Positions 1 through 16,544 of a DNA stretch of 16,544 nucleotides are shown here, one piece after another. Below the pieces are notes generated by a model. It was not told the origin of the DNA. It did not search any database and saw nothing but the letters and a program-made list of their open reading frames with translations. This DNA comes from a virus. Its lineage: Duplodnaviria; Heunggongvirae; Uroviricota; Caudoviricetes. Location of the stretch: the IMG/VR virus record IMGVR_UViG_2695420569_000027; one strand, 5' to 3'. A program made the position numbers and the translations under genes. Within the stretch, counting starts at the first letter, position 1. Each line of letters begins with the position of its first letter.

Positions 1-243
1 TCAGAAGTGACCGTCCAGGCGGTCACCGAACTCGATAATAAAGCGGCTCATTGCCATACGCCAGTCCCGCAGTGGCATCGTCCATTTCTGTGAAGCCGCC
101 TGGATTGCCAGCCACACGACCTTTTTCACTGAGTCATCCGTCGGGAACACCTTGCGTTTTTTGATGGCATGCCGGATTACGCTGTTCAGCGACTCGATGG
201 CGTTGGTTGTGTAGATGACTAGACTGGCCCCCTGAATCTCCAG
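1..243 (-). pseudogene. IS256-family (Mutator-type) transposase, 3'-terminal fragment; 5' part missing
   Basis: Minus-strand ORF ending at base 1; the C-terminal ~70 aa (YTTNAIESLNSVIRHAIKKRKVFPTDDSVKKVVWLAIQAASQKWTMPLRDWRMAMSRFIIEFGDRL) look like the conserved C-terminus of IS256-family transposases. The N-terminal 47 aa of the track ORF are low-complexity read-through. Fragment boundary is approximate. Confidence 0.55.
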
Positions 244-310
244 ACAACCAGTATCACTTAAATAAGTGATAGTCTTAATACTAGTTTTTAGACTAGTCAT
301 TGGAGAACAG

Positions 311-493
311 ATGATTGATGTCTTAGGGCCGGAGAAACGCAGACGGCGTACCACACAGGAAAAGATCGCAATTGTTCAGCAGAGCTTTGAACCGGGGATG
401 ACGGTCTCCCTCGTTGCCCGGCAACATGGTGTAGCAGCCAGCCAGTTATTTCTCTGGCGTAAGCAATACCAGGAAGGAAGTCTTACACATTGA
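311..493 (+). pseudogene. IS66-family accessory protein TnpA (orfA), 3'-truncated
   Basis: From the internal Met: [59 protein letters not shown], which matches my recollection of IS66/ISEc8-type orfA N-terminal halves. GGAG lies upstream of the ATG at 311. The reading frame stops 2 codons after the point where phoP sequence begins, so only ~60 of ~120 codons remain. Confidence 0.55.
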
Positions 494-593
494 TGTACTG
501 ATGGGACGTCTGCGCAAAAAAATTCAGGCACAATATCCGCAAGAAGTGATTACTACCGTTCGCGGCCAGGGCTATTTGTTCGAATTGCGCTGA
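488..593 (+). pseudogene. phoP: phoP 3'-terminal remnant (last ~35 codons of the PhoP response regulator)
   Basis: Codons 501-590 translate to [30 protein letters not shown] followed by TGA. This is the OmpR-family winged-helix C-terminus of PhoP, and its stop overlaps the phoQ ATG (ATGA at 591-595) as in the native operon. No receiver domain is present upstream. Confidence 0.75.
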
Positions 594-2176: not shown

Positions 2177-2202
2177 AAACAACGTGGAACAAATAGACAC
2201 AA
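2177..2202. repeat. Three GAACAA-type hexamers phased at 10 bp (site C), near the island's left end
   Basis: aaacaa at 2177, gaacaa at 2187, acacaa at 2197. The 15-mer aacaacgtggaacaa (2178-2192) is identical to 9642-9656. Confidence 0.35.
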
Positions 2203-2515
2203 GAAATATACAGGCGGATCATCTTTCCAGGGGGAAGCGCACCAATTCATGAGGGGCGTTAATGTCTATATGGGGATCCCCACCTACCGGAATTTTTTTC
2301 CGGTTAAACGTTAATCAGGCTGGTGGGCTTTACCTGTTCGGTAGGTGTTATGATTATCGTAATACCTTTCCCCCAATGGGGTAAAAGCATCAACCGTAAC
2401 GAAAGTCGTTATGGTTGCCACTGATACCCCAAATTTGGGTATCACGAGTAAGCCCCAAAATCTGGGTGTTACTCTTACTACCCAAACTACGGGTAGTTTC
2501 CGTAGTTTCATGGTC

Positions 2516-2535
2516 GAGTTGCAGATCTGCAACTC
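2516..2535. repeat. Perfect 20-bp palindrome GAGTTGCAGATCTGCAACTC
   Basis: Direct reading; the second half is the reverse complement of the first. It sits in a palindrome-dense non-coding stretch (2270-2640). Confidence 0.6.
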
Positions 2536-2789
2536 CCCCATTAACCACAGGCGAATTTCCGCCTTCGGTCATTCCTTAATCATCTGCGTAATCATAATGA
2601 TTATTCAGCAAGCGCAATTTTGCGCTTTGCTTAAAGTTCAGCGAGTTACCGCGCCGACTTCCTCAAATTGAGGTTTCCGAAAATATCAGCGGGTTAGCGA
2701 TTAAGCTGACCATTAATTAAACTGCGAAAATGTCGTAGTTGTGAGGGGTGTAGCCAACCCATTTTTGGGCCGTCGGGAATATCAACCAG

Positions 2790-3071
2790 TTACCGCCGCA
2801 ACCGCTCCGGCTTCTTCCAGTGGTACGTTATTTTCTCCTTCTCCCGATACATCTCCACGCGGCGACGGTAGGCCAGCAACTCAAGAACTCTGGTTCGTAT
2901 GTTGCGCATATCCACGCCATTAAGTTCTATACCATCACGGCGCATCACCTCAGCAACAACACGCGCATAGTTTTCGGCTGTCACGCTGTCCGGCTGCGTG
3001 GCCTGTTCGTCAGCCTGCTGGCTGATTCCGGCAACGCGGCGGATTAATCCCGTTATTTCGGCTTCTGTCAT
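2790..3071 (-). CDS. Hypothetical protein (93 aa) immediately downstream of terL
   Basis: ATG at 3071 with GAGG about 9 nt upstream; 13-nt gap after the terL stop. No family recognised. Confidence 0.4.
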   Translation of the reverse strand: MTEAEITGLIRRVAGISQQADEQATQPDSVTAENYARVVAEVMRRDGIELNGVDMRNIRTRVLELLAYRRRVEMYREKEKITYHWKKPERLRR

Positions 3072-8268: not shown

Positions 8269-9426
8269 TTAATCGTCGTCCTGTGGCAGTTCCAGAATCT
8301 TGATCGCGTTCGAATCCACCACGCCACCGCCTAAATATTTCTGCGCGAAAATTTTGATGAAGCCCGGCTCTGTGAGGTTGTCCGGTCTGGTGCGAACACC
8401 TGTTTCGTGATCAACAATGTAGTAACCGCGTTTGAAGTCACCCAGGGCAATAACGTTATCCGGCATAAACTCCAGATATTCGACCGGAAGGCCCAGCAAC
8501 GTATCAGGATCACCCGCCTGTAAACGGTCACGCCAGATGTAATCACCGTTCGCGTTCTTCACCTTCTGGAGTTTTGCCGCCGTCGTGGAGTTAACCACCC
8601 AGACCGCGTTTTTGCGGTATTTTTTACGTAATGCAAATTTCAGGTCGATCAGCGGGTCCGCAGATGTCCACGCCAGAGATTCGGAAGGTTTAATTACCTG
8701 CAACGTACCAAAATCACGCTCTTTGTCGTTCTTCTCTGCACGGGGTACGGATAAAAAGCCTTTTGCTTTTTTGTCACCGTCGCCCACAACCAGATCGCTT
8801 TCTTCGGTTTCCGTGAAGGTGTCGCCAATCTCGCCCGTCAGCCATGAAAGGATGTCCACATCGGAAAAATCCACGATTTCCTGCGTGGTGCGCGGGTACG
8901 CATAGACCGGATACAGCTTAATGCTCACCTCGTTAATCTGCGGGGTGCTGGTCTGTTCGCGTGCCTTACCCTCTTCACCGTGGTTAACGGTCGCACCGCC
9001 AGCGGAAACAAGCTGCTTAAACTCGTTGCTGCTGATTTTCTTCACGGTACAGATGCGGCGCATGGTGGATTCATCCGTCAGCATTCGCATGATTTCGGTG
9101 TTCAGTTCGGGGATAACGGTATAACCACCATCAGCGGGAACGCCTGTACTCAATGCGCGGGTTTCACCTGTCAGAATGTAGTGACGTAGTTCGGCGGGGT
9201 CAGTGGTCTGGCTGTTTTTGCCTGGTTTACTGCGCTCTTCGTCAGCAACGGCCTCAAGGCGGGAGATGTCTTTATCGAGGGATTCAGCTTTAGCGCGTAA
9301 TTCGTCAAATTTTGCGCCCTCAGCATCGTTAAGGCTGCGGTTTTCTTTTTCCGCGTTCTCCAGCATGTCGCGCATCTGATTTTTAATGGCGGTTTTCTGC
9401 TGGCGTAATTCGATTATTCTCGGCAT
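8269..9426 (-). CDS. Major capsid protein, HK97 fold, with N-terminal delta/scaffold-like domain
   Basis: About 385 aa from the ATG at 9426 (the track ORF begins at an upstream GTG at 9474). The N-terminal ~100 aa are coiled-coil rich, like an HK97 delta domain, followed by a capsid core. Confidence 0.9.
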   Translation of the reverse strand: MPRIIELRQQKTAIKNQMRDMLENAEKENRSLNDAEGAKFDELRAKAESLDKDISRLEAVADEERSKPGKNSQTTDPAELRHYILTGETRALSTGVPADGGYTVIPELNTEIMRMLTDESTMRRICTVKKISSNEFKQLVSAGGATVNHGEEGKAREQTSTPQINEVSIKLYPVYAYPRTTQEIVDFSDVDILSWLTGEIGDTFTETEESDLVVGDGDKKAKGFLSVPRAEKNDKERDFGTLQVIKPSESLAWTSADPLIDLKFALRKKYRKNAVWVVNSTTAAKLQKVKNANGDYIWRDRLQAGDPDTLLGLPVEYLEFMPDNVIALGDFKRGYYIVDHETGVRTRPDNLTEPGFIKIFAQKYLGGGVVDSNAIKILELPQDDD

Positions 9427-9517
9427 AAAAAAAGTCCTGAAGTTAAGTAAGGAACTCCAGGACGCGGCAAACACTCAACCGTTTTTCATAAGGAAATCAG
9501 CAATCGCACCGATCGTT

Positions 9518-9563
9518 TTCCCGCCTGGTAATGAATATTGGCGGGCACATTAACAGGCGGGAA
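9518..9563. promoter_or_regulatory. 10-bp inverted repeat (ttcccgcctg / caggcgggaa) in the capsid-operon leader
   Basis: 9518-9527 is the exact reverse complement of 9554-9563; the 26-bp spacer contains a partial ggcggg copy. Confidence 0.25.
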
Positions 9564-9640
9564 AGTGGCCCCAGCGTCCTGGCACCACGGGCGAGAATAA
9601 TCATGATTCAGTTCGGGTAAAATATGCCGATCCGGTCAGC

Positions 9641-9666
9641 GAACAACGTGGAACAACCACGAACAA
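9641..9666. repeat. Three GAACAA hexamers at exact 10-bp phasing (site B), upstream of the capsid operon
   Basis: gaacaa at 9641, 9651 and 9661. 17 of 18 bases match the reverse complement of 15223-15240, and 15 of 15 match 2178-2192. Confidence 0.4.
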
Positions 9667-9684
9667 ATAATTTACAAAACATGA

Positions 9685-9707
9685 CAAAAAGCCGGATTGC
9701 TCCGGCT
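9685..9707 (-). terminator. Rho-independent terminator after the PerC-like gene
   Basis: Minus-strand RNA AGCCGGA-GCAA-UCCGGCU (7-bp GC-rich stem, GNRA-type loop) followed by UUUUUGU. Confidence 0.55.
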
Positions 9708-9713
9708 GTGTGA

Positions 9714-9986
9714 TTATCTGTCCTGGTAATTTCGCCATATTTCATCACCAGCACCATCCATACCCATTTCGGCATAAGTGCGATCGACCGCCTTTTTCAG
9801 GTCTCCGTAATTATCCGGCGGCTCCGGTGGCCTCTGTGCCTTCCTGGAACATTCCAGCCGTCGCATCGTGATGTGATGCCGTTCCTTGTCTGTCTCCACC
9901 AGTTGCATGACTTCACCCCATCGCGCCGACGCTCTCCGGTAAAAGCCTTTCGCCTCCAGTTCTTCCGCTATGCGGTCATGTACCAT
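9714..9986 (-). CDS. PerC-family-like transcriptional activator (putative)
   Basis: From the ATG at 9986: MVHDRIAEELEAKGFYRRASARWGEVM..., which matches my recollection of the PerC/Pch signature (LE.KG..RRA..RW). The ssb stop is 13 nt upstream. Confidence 0.5.
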   Translation of the reverse strand: MVHDRIAEELEAKGFYRRASARWGEVMQLVETDKERHHITMRRLECSRKAQRPPEPPDNYGDLKKAVDRTYAEMGMDGAGDEIWRNYQDR

Positions 9987-9998
9987 CGTCCCCACCCC

Positions 9999-10409
9999 TC
10001 AGAACGGAATATCATCACCGTAAGGGTCATCGCCTCCCGCTGGTGGCTGATTACCCTGTGTGCCTGTGGTCTTGCGTCGGCTCCCACCAAGACGTGCCGC
10101 ACGGGCACTGATTACGCTGTCTGCAATAACCTGATAACCCTGCCGCGTTTCCCCGTTCTGTCCGGTCCACTGGCTGACCTGCATCGTGCCGGATACGCTG
10201 GCAACGTCGCCTTTTTGATGTTTAGCCAGGAAGTCGGCCTGCTTACCAAATGCGATGACCGATAGCCATAACGTCGCCTGTCCATCCTGTGCCTGGCTGC
10301 ATGGCAGCGATACCGCCATACGCGCCAGCGTCATCGGTGTACCCTTGCTGGTCTGTTTTACCTGCGGGTCGTCCACCAGCCGCCCGTAAGCTGCAATTTG
10401 TGCTGTCAT
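9999..10409 (-). CDS. ssb: Single-stranded DNA-binding protein
   Basis: 136 aa with an OB-fold-like N-terminus, a Gly/Pro-rich linker and the hallmark acidic tail ending DDIPF. GAGGTG lies 6 nt upstream of the ATG. Confidence 0.92.
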   Translation of the reverse strand: MTAQIAAYGRLVDDPQVKQTSKGTPMTLARMAVSLPCSQAQDGQATLWLSVIAFGKQADFLAKHQKGDVASVSGTMQVSQWTGQNGETRQGYQVIADSVISARAARLGGSRRKTTGTQGNQPPAGGDDPYGDDIPF

Positions 10410-10418
10410 ATTGCCACC

Positions 10419-10724
10419 TCAGTGAAGCGATCCGGCGTTGTTCTTTTTCATCTCTTCCATCATTTTTTCAGTGAGCATTACGCACTGAAAACCCATGTTT
10501 TTGATGTCTACGGGCTTCATGCCTTTATCAGTGGATATCACAGGCAGAATATCCTGATACACATCGCGGTCAGGGTAACTAAGCACACAAAGCGCCCATG
10601 ATGCCACGGGTGAGGATCCTTCGTCTGTTTCAACCCACCAGCCTGGTGTAGCTGCGCTTATTTGCTGAATCGTGATCCGTCCGTTGTGCTTGTAAAGTTT
10701 TTCACCAAATTTTGGTTCGCTCAT
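10419..10724 (-). CDS. Hypothetical protein (101 aa)
   Basis: ATG at 10724 with GGAGAG 8 nt upstream, overlapping the upstream stop (ATGA). No family recognised. Confidence 0.5.
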   Translation of the reverse strand: MSEPKFGEKLYKHNGRITIQQISAATPGWWVETDEGSSPVASWALCVLSYPDRDVYQDILPVISTDKGMKPVDIKNMGFQCVMLTEKMMEEMKKNNAGSLH

Positions 10725-10972
10725 GATTCCAACTCTCCGGTTTTAACGTTGATGGTTGTTACCTGTTCCGCTTCGGCAATCTCCCGTTCTGTCAGCGTGG
10801 CAAAGTTTGCCGCCGCCGTGGTCATGAATGCGCTTATCAGGTCGGGATGTTCCTTCGCGTATCCTTCCCGCGTGTGGCGGTCTATCGTTCTGATTGCCAC
10901 CTTTAAGGTGTGCTCAGTCATGTCTAACGCTTTATATTTTGGCTCTGTTCTGTCTCTGCGTTTTTGGGTCAT
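10721..10972 (-). CDS. Hypothetical protein (~83 aa)
   Basis: Start moved to the ATG at 10972 (GAGAGG upstream), because the track's GTG-initiated N-terminus is translated from the iteron repeats. Confidence 0.4.
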   Translation of the reverse strand: MTQKRRDRTEPKYKALDMTEHTLKVAIRTIDRHTREGYAKEHPDLISAFMTTAAANFATLTEREIAEAEQVTTINVKTGELES

Positions 10973-10984
10973 TTCTCGCAACCT

Positions 10985-11174
10985 CTCACTTTTTCGCCTC
11001 ACTTTTTCAAGCGTCTCACTTCGTCGCAGTTGGGATTTTCGGTTTTTCTATGTGTGTGTTTCATAAGTATTTTTTCACCCCTCACTTTTGAGGATGTATA
11101 CAGGTCGAAAAGTGAGGGGGAGCGGGCTAATTTTGGCCCTCTTTCTATCCCCCTCGCTTTTGCTCCTCACTTTT
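10985..11174. repeat. Iteron cluster (CTCACTTTT) flanking an AT-rich core: candidate replication origin
   Basis: CTCACTTTT at 10985, 10998, 11081 and 11166; variants at 11015 and 11153; an inverted copy (aaaagtgag) at 11108. An AT-rich tgtgtgtgtt tract lies between the clusters. The whole region is immediately 3' of the rep gene. Confidence 0.5.
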
Positions 11175-12573
11175 ATAGCGGCGCTACATCATCCCCATCG
11201 ATACGAATAACCCCATCTTTTTCCAGCTTGTACAGCCAGCGCCGGAAGTTTTTCATTTCATACCCCAGCTTTTTCATGTCATCACGTAACATCTGGATCG
11301 TGCACTTGTCGCCGTTCTGTGTGCGTGAACGGATGCACCCCCATAGCGCGGTATGGTTTTCCGTCTTGTTCCCTGCCTCCTCGATGCGCTCCAGTTCAAC
11401 AGGAGGGCGCGGATCATCCACCACCACCAGCGACGTGATTAATTCACCGTCAGCGTCGGTAAAAAGCTCCACCACGCGTAAGTCATATGCGGCTTCTTTG
11501 AGTTCCTCCGCGTCCTTCATTTTGGTGCATGAGATAACCAGCGCTTCGCTTCCTGCGTCCTCCCTGCGTATCCGGTATTCAGCATCCAGCGAAGCACGAA
11601 ATGCACTGGAACCGCGCGCGCCTTTCGTCTCATCCTTGCCGGAATGGTGAACCACCAGCACCGTGGCCCCTGTGCGTCGTTTCAGTTCGTCACAACCACG
11701 GATAAACGCCCCCATATCACGGGAATCATTTTCATCATTCCCACCAAAGCAACGCGCCAGCGTATCCAGAATAATCATGCGTACAGGTTTACCCGTTTCC
11801 CGCTCCACCTGACGGGCAGCGATAACCATTTCATCAACATCAAGCGGGGCAGCCGGAAAGATGGGGCGGTTTACCAGATACAGATTTTTCACCTGCTCAT
11901 CGTGCACAACCTCCCAGGCTTTTACACGACGCGGAACACCTATACCGCCTTCACCAACCACATAGAGAACCGCACCATGTGCAACCCTGCGGCCTCCCCA
12001 CTGGCGACCAGTGGCAACATGGCACGCCCACGATCCGGCAAGGAATGATTTATAGGACCCGCTAGCCCCGTATATGCTGCATAGCGATACCGCCGGAATA
12101 ATCCCCTTAACCACGTAATCCAGTTGCGTGTCGTATCCGGTAGATCCAACGCTCATCGGTAGCGTGGTTTTTCGCTGGTGGTTTTTTTCTTCCGCCGGCT
12201 CTTTCCCGCGCACCCGTTCCAGGTATTCGCGCCAGTTCTCCCGCATATGGCTGTGCATCCCTTCGGGGTAATAATTCGCATCAGTTACGCCCGCCGCCGC
12301 CAGCTTGTGCGCAATGGCATTAATATTTGATGGCCTGATGTGGCCTGCCTTGTACAGCCGGACACAATAGCGCCCCTCGTCGATGATTCTCAGGTCTGCC
12401 AGTTCATCCAGTTGATCATCAGCCAGCACAATGGGAGGCACATTATCGCCAGCCAGTCGCCCGTCCTGTTCCTGCCACTGTTTCGCATGTGCCCACGCAT
12501 CACTACCCGCAAAAATGATGACTTCGGTCATCTTGTCGTAAGGCTGTTTTTTTAAGTTCGGTGCGCTTTTCAT
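11173..12573 (-). CDS. Replication initiator with AAA_25 / RecA-like ATPase domain (PICI Rep-like)
   Basis: 466 aa with Walker A (GASGSYKSF), Walker B-like (MIILDTLARCF) and the HHSGKD motif typical of RepA/AAA_25 replication ATPases. Which satellite Rep subfamily it belongs to is not resolved. Confidence 0.8.
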   Translation of the reverse strand: MKSAPNLKKQPYDKMTEVIIFAGSDAWAHAKQWQEQDGRLAGDNVPPIVLADDQLDELADLRIIDEGRYCVRLYKAGHIRPSNINAIAHKLAAAGVTDANYYPEGMHSHMRENWREYLERVRGKEPAEEKNHQRKTTLPMSVGSTGYDTQLDYVVKGIIPAVSLCSIYGASGSYKSFLAGSWACHVATGRQWGGRRVAHGAVLYVVGEGGIGVPRRVKAWEVVHDEQVKNLYLVNRPIFPAAPLDVDEMVIAARQVERETGKPVRMIILDTLARCFGGNDENDSRDMGAFIRGCDELKRRTGATVLVVHHSGKDETKGARGSSAFRASLDAEYRIRREDAGSEALVISCTKMKDAEELKEAAYDLRVVELFTDADGELITSLVVVDDPRPPVELERIEEAGNKTENHTALWGCIRSRTQNGDKCTIQMLRDDMKKLGYEMKNFRRWLYKLEKDGVIRIDGDDVAPL

Positions 12574-12869
12574 TTCTTGCCCCTGAATCCGTTAACCATG
12601 GTTTTCAGCTTCTGGATGTTTGCCCGTGCCCTGGCGTTGCTGGTGGGCACGTTATGCGGCGCGGTCTGTACCAGAGAAAAATCACGCCGGAACTGATAAA
12701 CAGGCATCACGCAATCATATTCGTAACCTTCACGGCGGTAGGTTACGCGCCGTTCTTCCACGCCCTTAATCATTACCGTGCCGCCGTACTGGTCGCGGTA
12801 AATATCACCGCGCGTAAATTTAGGGTGAGTGTTGCCACTGGCAGTTAAGCCAGAATATTTAAGTTTCAT
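12570..12869 (-). CDS. Hypothetical protein (99 aa)
   Basis: Stop overlaps the rep start (ATGA); part of the tightly packed operon. Confidence 0.5.
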   Translation of the reverse strand: MKLKYSGLTASGNTHPKFTRGDIYRDQYGGTVMIKGVEERRVTYRREGYEYDCVMPVYQFRRDFSLVQTAPHNVPTSNARARANIQKLKTMVNGFRGKK

Positions 12870-14761: not shown

Positions 14762-14950
14762 TTAATGAACTGCCTTGCAGCTATCCTTCCAGGCCAGAAC
14801 CTCGGATAAAGACCAGCCAACGGAACGACCGCCAAGTTTACGACGTGATGGGAATTGTCCGGCCTTTTCCAGGCGGTAGCGACACGTACGGCTAAGGCCG
14901 GTTAGTTTTTCGCATTCTTTTTCACGTATAAACCGATCAGTGCTTAACAC
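14762..14950 (-). CDS. alpA: AlpA-family transcriptional regulator / excisionase-like protein
   Basis: 62 aa; EKLTGLSRTCRYRLEKAGQFPSRRKLGGRSVGWSLSEVLAWK matches the AlpA (Phage_AlpA) winged-helix signature. GTG start with GGGGG upstream. Confidence 0.88.
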   Translation of the reverse strand: MLSTDRFIREKECEKLTGLSRTCRYRLEKAGQFPSRRKLGGRSVGWSLSEVLAWKDSCKAVH

Positions 14951-15222
14951 TATTGCCCCCTTTCGTTTCTTAAAGAGTCATCAGGTGTCTTATTGTGTCG
15001 TATTGTTCCCGCTAGAGTGATGAATGGCAAATACTGAGGATGTATGATTTACAGAAAATGAAAAAGTAAGAATAAAATCTTTTAAATTCATGTTAATACA
15101 AAGGCATAAAATATTGTTCCATGCCTTTTTTCTCGCTCTTTAAAGAGTGATTCGCTAGTGTATAAAAAACCAGTAACACATTAAAAATCAGCTACTTATA
15201 AATCCGTACGCTTTTTCGCCTC

Positions 15223-15275
15223 TTGTTCGTAGTTGTTCCACATTGTTGCTCATTGTTGCACGTTGTATCTGTTCG
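15223..15275. repeat. Five to six TTGTTC-type hexamers at exact 10-bp phasing (site A), in the int-alpA intergenic region
   Basis: ttgttc at 15223 and 15233, ttgttg at 15243 and 15253, ttgtat at 15263, tgttc at 15270. The first 18 bp are the reverse complement of site B with one mismatch. Confidence 0.45.
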
Positions 15276-15314: not shown

Positions 15315-16544
15315 TTATTTTCTTCTGGCTACTGGTAGCGTGGTTACGTTTTCATGTGTTCCCGCCAGTATCCCTAACCGCTCCGTCCACATATCCAGCG
15401 CATTGCGTTTCGCATCCAGATAACGGGAATGATTATAAACTCGCTGCATTCCTGGCATCTGGTGGCCTGTAAGCTGCTCCACGACATGCGGATCAACGCC
15501 TAAATCGTTCAGCATGGTTGTAAAGGTGCGCCGGATGTCATGCAGTGACCAGTGAGGGTGATTAAGCCTCCTGTGCGCTAATCTTCCATACTGCGATACG
15601 CTGGCCTCCTGTTTCACTTCCCCCAGCAATAAGCCCGTGTGCCTGTTCTGCTCCACCAGCTGCGTGATGAACGGCAGTATTGCTTCCGGTATAGGCCGGA
15701 ATATGGCTACCTTCGTTTTGCTGTGCTCCTTCGGAACGGTCCAGAGCATTTCGGTAAAATCCCACTCGCTGATCTCCGATAACCTCAGTTCTACCGTCCG
15801 GCATCCGAACACAATCAGGAGGCGGATTAACGCGATGTAGTAGGGGGAGAATATTTTTTTGTCCAGTGCCTGCAATAATTCGCCCAGTTCTTTGGTGCTT
15901 AAGACACGCTCGCTTATATCCGGTTTTTTCCCAACGTCCGCCACACTCATATCATCAAGAACGTTGCTGATTGCATAGCGCCGCCTCCGGCAGAACTTAA
16001 GCGCCTGTTTGCACGTCTGTAGCAAGAATCCGGCAGTAACAGGCGTTCGCTTTGCCACCTGGTCAAAACAGGCCAGCCAGTGCCGTAGCTCGCATTTATC
16101 CAGCGGCATAGCACCAATGTGCTGTATTACGTGATTATTAAGGCGCTTTTTCAGGGCGGCATAATCCACGCGGTTTTCCTTTGCGTACGACTCAAGCCAG
16201 TAGGTGAGCGCATCGCCAACCGTTACCGGCTTTAACGCTTCCTGTACGGTGTAATTAAGCTCATGACGTGGATTTTTCCCCTCTGCCAGCCATGCGCGAC
16301 ACTGGGCGGCTTTTTCCCTGGCTGATTTCAGGCTCAGATCAGGATAATTTCCCAGCTTAATGCGTTCCGGTGGTGCCCCCCTTCCCGTTCCGGCCCTGTA
16401 AGTGAAATACCAGGTTAAAAGGCCACTGGTTGAATGCCTGACGCTCAGGTTTCCACCGTCATTAAGAAAGGCTGTTTTTTGGGCGGGTGTGCCGTTGATT
16501 TTCCTCAGCTGTGTATCGCTCAGTTTGTTAAGTGCTCTGCTCAT
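15315..16544 (-). CDS. int: Tyrosine integrase, P4-type (N-terminal arm-binding domain)
   Basis: 409 aa; the start codon is the final three bases of the window. N-terminal arm-DNA-binding-like region (LSVRHSTSGLLTWYFTYR) and catalytic residues in the C-terminal half (HDIRRTF, then Y in VYNHSRYL). Confidence 0.93.
   Translation of the reverse strand: MSRALNKLSDTQLRKINGTPAQKTAFLNDGGNLSVRHSTSGLLTWYFTYRAGTGRGAPPERIKLGNYPDLSLKSAREKAAQCRAWLAEGKNPRHELNYTVQEALKPVTVGDALTYWLESYAKENRVDYAALKKRLNNHVIQHIGAMPLDKCELRHWLACFDQVAKRTPVTAGFLLQTCKQALKFCRRRRYAISNVLDDMSVADVGKKPDISERVLSTKELGELLQALDKKIFSPYYIALIRLLIVFGCRTVELRLSEISEWDFTEMLWTVPKEHSKTKVAIFRPIPEAILPFITQLVEQNRHTGLLLGEVKQEASVSQYGRLAHRRLNHPHWSLHDIRRTFTTMLNDLGVDPHVVEQLTGHQMPGMQRVYNHSRYLDAKRNALDMWTERLGILAGTHENVTTLPVARRK

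What the first reader, a model, noticed from the sequence alone, without database searches (positions are those of the whole stretch)
9714..9986. PerC-like regulator encoded inside the satellite, just upstream of the late operon
The N-terminus resembles PerC/Pch-family activators, which in pathogenic E. coli activate chromosomal virulence regulons. Its position, followed by a strong terminator and then the phased-repeat site and capsid operon, suggests it could be the late-gene activator or a cargo regulator acting on host genes.
Basis: partly seen in the sequence, partly recalled or inferred. Interest (0 to 1): 0.5.

Follow-up and report, generated by a model that had tools for sequence, protein, structure and literature searches.

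The report
PerC-family regulator PchE in satellite
The ORF is a real, conserved 90-residue PerC-family regulator gene, the already described pchE of E. coli capsid-forming phage satellites. Comparison of related islands suggests it is an optional accessory regulator, not the switch that turns on the satellite's capsid genes.

Summary
Observation confirmed. Window 9714-9986 (- strand) encodes a 90-aa protein that matches Pfam PerC (PF06069) over its full length (146.6 bits, E 2.7e-43). An intrinsic terminator (9690-9707) follows it, then three phased TTGTTC repeats (9641-9666), then an HK97-type capsid operon.

The element is a ~14.5-kb capsid-forming PICI (EcCIEDL933 / OI-51 / Sp7 type) at the phoQ-roxA site. 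The gene is the orthologue of pchE (87% identical to Sakai ECs1588) and RefSeq already annotates it as PerC family. Published work shows that overexpressed PchE represses csgD/curli and activates flagella but barely affects LEE1. So the "cargo regulator" reading has published support.

The "late-gene activator" reading is not supported:
- 15 of 53 related islands with the identical capsid promoter have no PerC gene. The slot is empty or holds a ProQ/FinO-like gene.
- cf-PICIs of other genera and a second E. coli lineage also lack PerC.
- PerC occurs in PICIs with unrelated late promoters, or with no capsid genes.
- The TTGTTC arrays recur upstream of alpA and beside the att core, and they track the AlpA allele, not PerC.

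AlpA is therefore the likelier late activator (inferred). The finding is already known and of low to moderate interest.

The parts
9714..9986 (-). perC/pchE-type CDS of 90 aa. It has a basic TPR-like three-helix N-domain (residues 5-50), a Pro-rich linker (51-59) and an acidic helical tail.
9987..9998 (-). 12-nt ssb-perC spacer with an SD-like G-run (GGGGTGGGGACG). The tight spacing suggests translational and operon coupling to ssb.
   Evidence: Read directly from the sequence.
9685..9707 (-). Intrinsic terminator that closes the perC transcript (7-bp GC-rich stem, 4-nt loop, T5).
   Evidence: dG -13.2, z -3.72. The same hairpin follows perC in EcCICFT073, Sakai and L025.
9999..10409 (-). ssb, the cistron immediately upstream. 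The ssb-perC pair is conserved across several PICI types.
10419..10972 (-). orf101 (10419-10724) and orf83 (10721-10972, ECs1586 homologue). They are the probable first cistrons of the orf83-orf101-ssb-perC operon.
   Evidence: Overlapping or tightly spaced same-strand ORFs. In PA20, RACE mapped the pchE transcript start 10 nt upstream of ECs1586 (PMC7369912).
9641..9679 (-). Capsid-operon promoter module, adjacent to perC but NOT part of the gene: TTTTGTAAATTA plus TTGTTC x3 at 10-bp phase. The third repeat would serve as the -35.
   Evidence: The module always abuts the capsid leader, whatever lies between it and perC.
9594..9624 (-). Two candidate weak -10 hexamers: TATTTT (9624-9619), 16 nt after repeat 3, and TATTCT (9599-9594), 16 nt after TTTACC.
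   Evidence: Read from the sequence. The arrangement is conserved in L006 despite a diverged spacer. No consensus sigma-70 promoter was found.
14762..14950 (-). alpA (Pfam Phage_AlpA), the candidate binder of the TTGTTC arrays and candidate late activator.
   Evidence: 61.8 bits. Co-occurrence with the arrays. Its role as the PICI activator is described in PMC6092414.

Best explanation
The ORF is a functional PerC-family gene, the orthologue of pchE of E. coli O157:H7. It lies on a ~14.5-kb capsid-forming phage-inducible chromosomal island of the EcCIEDL933 / OI-51 / Sp7 type, integrated between phoQ and roxA.

Shown:
- It is the last cistron of the replication-module transcription unit (orf83-orf101-ssb-perC), and an intrinsic terminator closes that unit.
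- It occupies a variable accessory slot between the replication and packaging modules. In related islands the slot holds PerC, PerC plus one or two other genes, a ProQ/FinO-like gene, or nothing.

Inferred:
- The protein is a small all-helical, TPR-like molecule with a basic N-domain and an acidic tail and no recognisable HTH. It therefore most likely acts in trans by protein-protein contacts or by remodelling nucleoprotein complexes. This mechanism was shown for group-1 Pch, which displaces H-NS/StpA at LEE1.
- Low constitutive expression from the integrated island would retune host surface and motility regulons. Published PchE overexpression data show csgD/curli down and flhDC/flagella up.
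- It is not the dedicated activator of the capsid operon. The late promoter's phased TTGTTC boxes are most likely AlpA boxes, so AlpA, the known PICI master activator, probably drives the late operon directly.
For: Identity:
- Pfam PerC 146.6 bits over the full length.
- 87% identical to Sakai PchE at the same locus and island.
- 42% identical to EPEC PerC next to perA, and 43% to a Pch group-1-like gene.
- dN/dS 0.21-0.40.

Operon and terminator:
-.
- RACE start upstream of ECs1586 (PMC7369912).

Accessory slot:
- 63 IMG/VR loci carry the exact capsid-promoter motif, and 53 of them have >=1.5 kb of upstream sequence.
- Of those 53, 19 have PerC alone, 19 have PerC plus an orf82-type gene, and 15 have no PerC in any frame (best HMM E 0.18).
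- In the PerC-less loci the slot is empty (L043) or holds a ProQ/FinO-like gene (L034, L049; Pfam PF04352).
- A Shigella island has an in-frame SSB::PerC C-terminal fusion that deletes the PerC N-domain.
- cf-PICIs of Rosenbergiella, Citrobacter, Erwinia and Gilliamella lack PerC. So does a second E. coli lineage at yhdJ-fis.
- The preprint 10.1101/2025.02.11.637232 calls the region before the packaging module variable.

No PerC-promoter linkage:
- The same PerC N-domain is found upstream of four different things: a lambda-type capsid/decoration module with a palindromic operator and no TTGTTC (EcCICFT073); a protease-capsid fusion module; only Mor; extra PerC paralogues plus Q.

AlpA link:
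- TTGTTC-N4-TTGTTC (up to 2 mismatches) gives 14 matches in the window against 1.9 expected, reached by 0 of 200 shuffles.
- Arrays lie at 9641-9666, at 15212-15258 and 14985-15010 upstream of alpA, and at 2177-2202 beside the att core.
- 15 of 19 loci with type-A AlpA have an array within 500 nt of alpA.
- Arrays are absent from PerC-positive PICIs that carry other AlpA types (L002, L007, L025/26).
- AlpA auto-activates and is the PICI activator (PMC6092414).

Fold:
- No PDB sequence relative was found.

Host effects of PchE: PMC6265319, PMC7369912, PMC5931665. Pch anti-H-NS mechanism: PMC4764244.
Against: - No experiment has tested a perC mutant for capsid-operon expression or island transfer.
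- The position of ssb-perC at the boundary with the morphogenesis module is conserved in several E. coli PICI lineages. That is also where phage late activators typically sit.
- PerC-less lineages could use a different activator or be less active.
- Both the pchE operon and the capsid operon are expressed at a basal level without a helper, so a supporting role is possible.
- The host phenotypes come from plasmid overexpression of the O157 orthologue (87% identical), not from this allele.
- The AlpA-box assignment is inferential. Integrase arm-type sites or a helper-phage protein could bind the repeats instead.
- The anti-H-NS mechanism is extrapolated from group-1 Pch (about 43% identical). 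PchE's effects (stpA down, motility up) do not look like simple H-NS antagonism.
Confidence: 0.6

Rival explanations
1. PerC is the direct late-gene activator. It is made from the replication operon after induction, binds at or near the phased-repeat promoter, and turns on the capsid operon.
For: - It lies immediately upstream of the late operon behind a terminator.
- The late promoter is weak and has no consensus -35, so it looks activator-dependent.
- The ssb-perC position before morphogenesis modules is conserved in E. coli PICIs.
- The family is named for transcriptional activation.
Against: - 15 of 53 islands with the identical promoter lack PerC.
- Other cf-PICI lineages with the same promoter architecture lack it.
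- Islands with near-identical PerC N-domains have unrelated late promoters.
- The repeats recur at alpA and the att arm, and they track the AlpA type.
- No DNA-binding fold was detected.
- In Sakai and others, one or two genes and a second terminator separate perC from the promoter.
Confidence: 0.1
2. PerC is a dispensable helper of island expression. As an anti-silencer or nucleoid modulator it relieves H-NS-type silencing of the AT-rich island promoters. These would include the late promoter that gives helper-independent tail-less capsids. The host-gene effects would be by-products.
For: - Group-1 Pch acts by displacing H-NS/StpA (PMC4764244).
- PchE targets (csgD, flhDC, stpA, ler, eae, lpfA) are H-NS-regulon genes by my own knowledge, and are listed in PMC7369912.
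- Capsids are made without a helper (10.1101/2025.02.11.637232), and both pchE and the capsid operon have basal transcripts.
- The promoter region is AT-rich with a conserved TTTTGTAAATTA element.
Against: - There is no direct evidence.
- PerC-less islands keep the same promoter.
- The direction of the PchE effects (stpA down, motility up) is not that of simple H-NS antagonism.
- The PA20 RNA-seq data are uninformative, because the flanking chromosomal genes fall in parallel.
Confidence: 0.2
3. PerC targets the helper phage, either interfering with helper gene expression or trans-activating helper tail and lysis genes, as P4 Delta does for P2.
For: - Related PICIs carry other phage-type transcription regulators at the same slot: Mor and Q plus extra PerC paralogues.
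- The EcCIMP1 study links a PerC-bearing PICI to helper phage replication (PMC11773190).
Against: - When the EcCICFT073 genes located after the ori were expressed one by one, only c1503 (rpp) inhibited lambda (PMC6739421). PerC lies in that region.
- pchE is expressed in the uninduced state and falls on SOS induction.
- tblastn found no relatives in bona fide phage genomes, apart from one 1.5-kb fragment.
Confidence: 0.07
4. The ORF is a decaying or functionless remnant.
For: Truncated, frameshifted or fused alleles exist: P0039 and P0045, the Shigella SSB::PerC fusion and the 82-aa CFT073 allele.
Against: - dN/dS is 0.21-0.40.
- 32 residues are invariant across 18 alleles.
- 793 of 5426 complete E. 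coli genomes hold a >=80%-length copy.
- The orthologue gives strong phenotypes.
Confidence: 0.03

Closest known systems
PchE (ECs1588) of E. coli O157:H7 Sakai/EDL933, on OI-51 / CP-933C / Sp7 = cf-PICI EcCIEDL933
   Same: - Same island type, same integration site (phoQ-roxA) and same position after ssb.
- 90 aa, 87% identical.
[quoted passage not shown]
   Different: - 12 substitutions.
- In Sakai a 74-aa gene (ECs1589) and a second copy of the terminator lie between pchE and the capsid promoter. In the window they are absent.
- The replication module differs: primase with TAACCCGCA iterons in Sakai, RepA-type helicase with AAGTGAGG iterons here.
PerC of the EPEC EAF plasmid (perABC)
   Same: Same Pfam family, same size, carried on a mobile element; 42% identity over residues 2-89.
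   Different: - PerC activates LEE1/ler, whereas PchE has a <2-fold effect (PMC5931665).
- Different genetic context: a plasmid operon with the AraC-type regulator PerA.
PchA/B/C (group-1 Pch) of EHEC lambdoid prophages
   Same: PerC family, ~43% identity. They are small trans-acting regulators carried by prophages.
   Different: - Group 1 is ~104 aa, is encoded after the lysis genes next to effector genes, is SOS-induced, activates LEE1 and displaces H-NS (PMC4764244).
- pchE sits in a satellite's replication operon and falls on SOS induction.
EcCIMP1_025, the PerC-like protein of PICI EcCIMP1
   Same: A PICI-encoded PerC-family protein, reported as ~40% identical to the EcCIEDL933 and EcCICFT073 proteins (PMC11773190).
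   Different: It silences LEE1 in C. rodentium. Its authors suspect ANR-like behaviour.
ANR (AraC negative regulator, Aar) family
   Same: A small helical protein. There is a weak similarity of residues 7-52 to NF033650.
   Different: The score is 19.1 bits against a cut-off of 32, so this is not a member.

Membership tests
PerC family (Pfam PF06069) | Profile match above the curated gathering score | tested here: met
   146.6 bits against a cut-off of 22.6, E 2.7e-43.
PerC family (Pfam PF06069) | Single-domain protein of ~90 aa that covers the whole profile | tested here: met
   Residues 1-89 match profile positions 1-89 of 90. Conserved YRRAAARW core.
PerC/Pch as functionally defined (LEE activators) | Activates the LEE1/ler promoter | not testable with these tools
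PchE (group-3 Pch) orthologue | Same locus (after ssb in the phoQ-roxA island) and high identity to ECs1588 | tested here: met
   Synteny; 87% identity by count on the sequences printed; a database entry named PchE among the close hits (P0035).
ANR family (NCBIfam NF033650) | Profile match above the curated cut-off | tested here: not met
   19.1 bits against a cut-off of 32.
cf-PICI (the host element) | int + alpA + replication genes, plus its own capsid, protease, portal, connectors, HNH, TerS and TerL; no tail or lysis genes; ~10-15 kb; a dedicated att site | tested here: met
   ORFs and annotation. A 21-bp att core direct repeat bounds ~14.5 kb. The island is described as EcCIEDL933-type in 10.1101/2022.09.08.507074.
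Known phage late regulators (Mor/C, Q, Ogr/Delta, RinA/ArpU) | Profile match to one of these families | tested here: not met
   PerC is the only Pfam hit at E <= 1.
Dedicated activator of the cf-PICI capsid promoter (functional class) | Obligate co-occurrence with the promoter it controls | tested here: not met
   15 of 53 loci with the identical promoter have no PerC in any frame. Further cf-PICI lineages also lack PerC.
Dedicated activator of the cf-PICI capsid promoter (functional class) | Activates the promoter in a reporter assay, or a mutant loses late transcription | not testable with these tools
   No published perC mutant or reporter test was found.

The most novel reading that the evidence does not exclude
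PerC-family proteins carried at the ssb-perC slot of enterobacterial PICIs might be satellite-encoded nucleoid or anti-silencing modulators. Expressed constitutively from the integrated island, they would license the helper-independent basal transcription of the capsid operon that yields tail-less capsids. The retuning of host curli and flagella would then be a side effect. On this reading PerC would be a non-essential co-factor of AlpA at the late promoter.
Probability: 0.15. Interest if true: 0.55.

Novelty: already known. Interest (0 to 1): 0.2.

Why it matters
The gene, its family, its island and its host-directed phenotypes are already published, so the finding adds little. The useful results here are two.

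First, a negative one: natural variation argues that PerC is an exchangeable accessory gene, not the late switch of capsid-forming satellites.

Second, a testable alternative: the phased TTGTTC arrays at the capsid promoter, upstream of alpA and beside the att core look like AlpA boxes. If AlpA directly activates the packaging operon, that would explain how one helper-induced protein coordinates excision, replication and capsid production in cf-PICIs. The literature I could search has not defined this regulatory step.

Tried and rejected
- tblastn of the protein against 50,697 phage records gave one hit, a 1.5-kb unannotated fragment. Phage context could not be used.
- Rfam on the whole window gave nothing.
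- The first literature search was wasted on word-start matching.
- Porter et al. 2005 (PMC543544) is not held, so its result is cited second-hand.
- I read the PA20 RNA-seq supplement to see whether pchE and the capsid genes move apart on induction. All Sp7 genes and the flanking chromosomal genes fall together at 12 h, so it is uninformative.
- I tried to equate the Citrobacter locus L012 with the experimentally active EcCIGN02175. This was not confirmed: only ~82% identity to E. coli islands.
- 'Hypothetical gene 1792' of the cf-PICI paper could not be mapped to a specific ORF.
- I considered the phased repeats as a cos/TerS site or as ori iterons and rejected both. The ori iterons (AAGTGAGG) lie at 10975-11170. 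The repeats also recur at alpA and att.
- Integrase arm-type sites remain a possible alternative for the att-proximal array only.

Full report
**What is at the coordinates.** On the minus strand, an ATG at 9986 opens a 90-codon ORF that ends with TGA at 9716-9714. It follows the ssb stop codon after a 12-nt G-rich spacer. The protein matches Pfam PerC (PF06069) over its full length: 146.6 bits, E 2.7e-43, residues 1-89 of 90. It also matches PHROG 994. The ANR family match is below threshold, at 19.1 bits against a cut-off of 32. RefSeq annotates the same gene in a 98.5%-identical island of E. coli FORC_042 as 'PerC family transcriptional regulator'. dN/dS against seven homologues is 0.21-0.40, and 32 residues are invariant in 18 alleles. 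This is a real gene under selection.

**What the element is.** The window runs from a truncated phoP and phoQ into an island on the minus strand. In order of transcription it encodes:
- int (15315-16544) and alpA (14762-14950, Pfam Phage_AlpA)
- several small ORFs
- DUF4222/RgdR (12570-12869)
- a RepA-type helicase (11173-12573)
- orf83, orf101, ssb and perC
- an HK97-type capsid, protease, portal, head closure protein, connector, HNH, TerS and TerL, then a 93-aa ORF

A 21-bp direct repeat (ACTACACCATTAACTACACCG) bounds ~14.5 kb. There are no tail or lysis genes. This is a capsid-forming PICI of the EcCIEDL933 type (10.1101/2022.09.08.507074). It corresponds to O-island 51 / CP-933C / Sakai Sp7, which lies between ycfD (roxA) and phoQ. 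[quoted passage not shown] The Sakai orthologue ECs1588 is annotated pchE and is 87% identical. True EPEC PerC, next to perA on an EAF plasmid, is 42% identical. A Pch group-1-like gene is 43% identical.

**What is already known about PchE.**
- PchE has minimal effect on ler/LEE (PMC5931665; PMC6265319).
- Plasmid expression strongly represses csgD/csgA, curli and biofilm.
- Plasmid expression activates flhDC, fliC and motility, and lowers stpA, eae and lpfA1 (PMC7369912).
- pchE is transcribed at a low steady level in the lysogen, and expression falls after SOS induction.
- RACE placed the transcript start 10 nt upstream of ECs1586, giving a polycistronic ECs1586-ssb-pchE RNA.
- PICI papers note that some E. 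coli PICIs carry PerC alleles (PMC6092414). A PICI PerC-like protein, EcCIMP1_025, represses LEE1 (PMC11773190).
- Group-1 Pch works by displacing H-NS/StpA from LEE1 (PMC4764244).

So the family assignment and the 'cargo regulator on host genes' idea are already in the literature.

**Is PerC the late-gene activator? Gene context.** The ssb-perC pair ends the replication module in at least five PICI architectures:
- cf-PICIs (L006, L028, Sakai)
- EcCICFT073, with a lambda-type capsid and decoration module
- islands with a protease-capsid fusion
- small islands that end with PerC-Mor
- islands with extra PerC paralogues and a Q antiterminator

The boundary position is therefore conserved, which is mildly in favour of the activator idea. 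But what lies downstream is not conserved. EcCICFT073 has the same AlpA allele and a nearly identical PerC N-domain. Its late region, however, has a near-consensus sigma-70 promoter overlapped by a perfect palindrome and no TTGTTC array.

**The promoter belongs to the capsid operon, not to perC.** In every cf-PICI examined, the module TTTTGTAAATTA + TTGTTC x3 + N16 + TATTTT abuts the capsid leader. This holds whether zero, one or two genes lie between it and perC, including a reverse-oriented gene. In Sakai the perC terminator hairpin occurs twice, after pchE and after ECs1589. The window has one copy and lacks ECs1589.

**Phyletic test.** An exact-match scan of IMG/VR for the 28-nt promoter core returned 63 loci. 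Of the 53 with at least 1.5 kb of upstream sequence:
- 19 have PerC only. One of these PerC calls (L060) is a 53-aa SSB::PerC remnant, like the Shigella fusion below.
- 19 have PerC plus the orf82-type gene.
- 15 have no PerC.

A six-frame, unfiltered HMM search of those 15 loci found nothing better than E 0.18. In them the slot is empty (L043) or holds a ProQ/FinO-like gene (L034, L049). Further cases point the same way:
- A Shigella flexneri island with 98-99% identical int, alpA and packaging genes carries an in-frame SSB::PerC C-terminal fusion that lacks the PerC N-domain.
- cf-PICIs from Rosenbergiella, Citrobacter, Erwinia and Gilliamella lack PerC. The first three keep TGTAAATTAT followed by phased hexamers of a different sequence, (G/T)TACCC.
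- A second E. coli lineage at yhdJ-fis also lacks PerC.

A dedicated activator should co-occur with its promoter. PerC does not.

**Who binds the phased repeats?** TTGTTC-N4-TTGTTC (up to 2 mismatches) occurs 14 times in the window against 1.9 expected, and none of 200 shuffles reached that count. Arrays lie at four places:
- the capsid promoter
- 15212-15258, five to six repeats between int and alpA
- 14985-15010, just upstream of alpA
- 2177-2202, which is 17-42 bp from the att core

EcCICFT073, Sakai, L010 and L028 also carry an array between int and alpA, and EcCICFT073 also has the att-proximal arrays. L006 has the capsid-promoter and att-arm arrays, and L027 has one just downstream of alpA. 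Of 19 IMG/VR loci with type-A AlpA, 15 have an array within 500 nt of alpA. PerC-positive PICIs that carry other AlpA types have none (L002, L007, L025/26). AlpA activates its own promoter and is the activator of the Gram-negative PICI cycle (PMC6092414). alpA overexpression is used to drive EcCIEDL933 production (10.1101/2025.02.11.637232). From my own knowledge, Xis/Cox/Vis-type winged-helix proteins, to which AlpA is related, bind helically phased direct repeats. I therefore infer that the phased-repeat site is an AlpA box array and that AlpA, not PerC, is the likely direct late activator. This is an inference. Integrase arm sites or a helper-encoded inducer remain possible binders.

**How PerC most likely works.**
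- The AlphaFold2 model (pLDDT 82.9) has three confident helices (5-13, 16-27, 33-50), a Pro-rich linker and two weaker C-terminal helices.
- The N-domain is net basic and the tail is acidic (counted from the sequence).
- No solved relative exists by sequence.
- With no HTH, and by analogy with group-1 Pch, the best reading is a small adaptor that alters transcription through protein or nucleoprotein contacts.
- Tested singly, the EcCICFT073 genes located after the ori (other than rpp) did not block lambda (PMC6739421). That argues against helper interference.

**What stays open.** A non-essential supporting role at island promoters remains open. Capsids are produced without a helper, and both operons have basal transcripts. 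The available RNA-seq cannot separate them, because the flanking chromosomal genes fall in parallel.

**Verdict.** The family assignment is right and already known: this is pchE. The host-regulator reading has published support. The late-activator reading is not supported by natural variation, but it has not been tested experimentally. Novelty: already known. Interest is low to moderate. The main value lies in redirecting attention to AlpA and the TTGTTC boxes.

Noticed in passing
window 9641-9666(-), 15212-15258(+), 14985-15010, 2177-2202(-); also L001 ~17030-17060, outside the island next to roxA: Helically phased TTGTTC arrays occur at the capsid promoter, twice upstream of alpA, and 17-42 bp from the att core. 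A similar array flanks the other att core copy on the chromosomal side. They co-occur with AlpA type A/B, so they are candidate AlpA (or RDF) boxes.
   Followed up: yes
window 9424-9625(-): The ~200-nt capsid-operon leader is unusually structured (MFE -69 kcal/mol, z -4.57). A terminator-like hairpin plus a U7 run (9463-9434) ends two bases before the capsid ATG (9426), which has no SD. An upstream CCAGGACGC (9582-9574) can pair with the left arm of that hairpin (9465-9457), so this may be an attenuator/antiterminator arrangement. There is no Rfam match.
   Followed up: partly
window 9680-9714, compared with L024 8046-8440: The window lacks the 74-82-aa gene (ECs1589 type) that sits directly upstream of the capsid promoter in Sakai and in cf-PICIs of four other genera. 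Sakai has the perC terminator hairpin on both sides of that gene, which suggests the gene was deleted by recombination between the two copies. This gene is more widely conserved with the capsid operon than PerC is.
   Followed up: partly
L034 2803-3381, L049 4051-4629: In some cf-PICIs with the same capsid promoter, a ~190-aa ProQ/FinO-family protein occupies the slot after ssb instead of PerC (Pfam PF04352, E 7.8e-07).
   Followed up: partly
window 1-592: phoP is truncated and only its last ~115 bp (478-592) remain. Upstream lie an IS2-like OrfA fragment (266-477, HTH_Tnp_1) and the C-terminus of a Mutator/IS256-family transposase (1-354, minus strand). The PhoPQ system of this strain is therefore probably broken.
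   Followed up: partly
window 10975-11170(-): An iteron field (AAGTGAGG repeated about six times in both orientations) lies between the RepA-type helicase gene and orf83. It is the probable island ori. Sakai has different iterons (TAACCCGCA) together with a primase-type replicase.
   Followed up: no
L023 8860-8935 (EcCICFT073): The late operon of EcCICFT073 has a near-consensus promoter (TTGCTC-N16-TATAAT) overlapped by a perfect palindrome (TCATAACTGGATG/CATCCAGTTATGA). This looks like a repressor operator. It shares the 12-mer AATCATGATTAT with the window's late region (9607-9596).
   Followed up: no
L002 8370-8740: Downstream of PerC in a DUF927-primase PICI there is an array of about five ~24-nt repeats (GGGCAACTGGAGCCCTCTGTACAG-like) at ~60-bp spacing. 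Its nature is unknown.
   Followed up: no
window 2210-2790: About 580 bp of apparently non-coding, structured sequence lies between the att-proximal array and the last island ORF (2790-3071). It contains several inverted repeats (for example GGGGATCCCC and CCGGAAAAAAATTCCGG). Other work calls the region after the packaging module variable.
   Followed up: no
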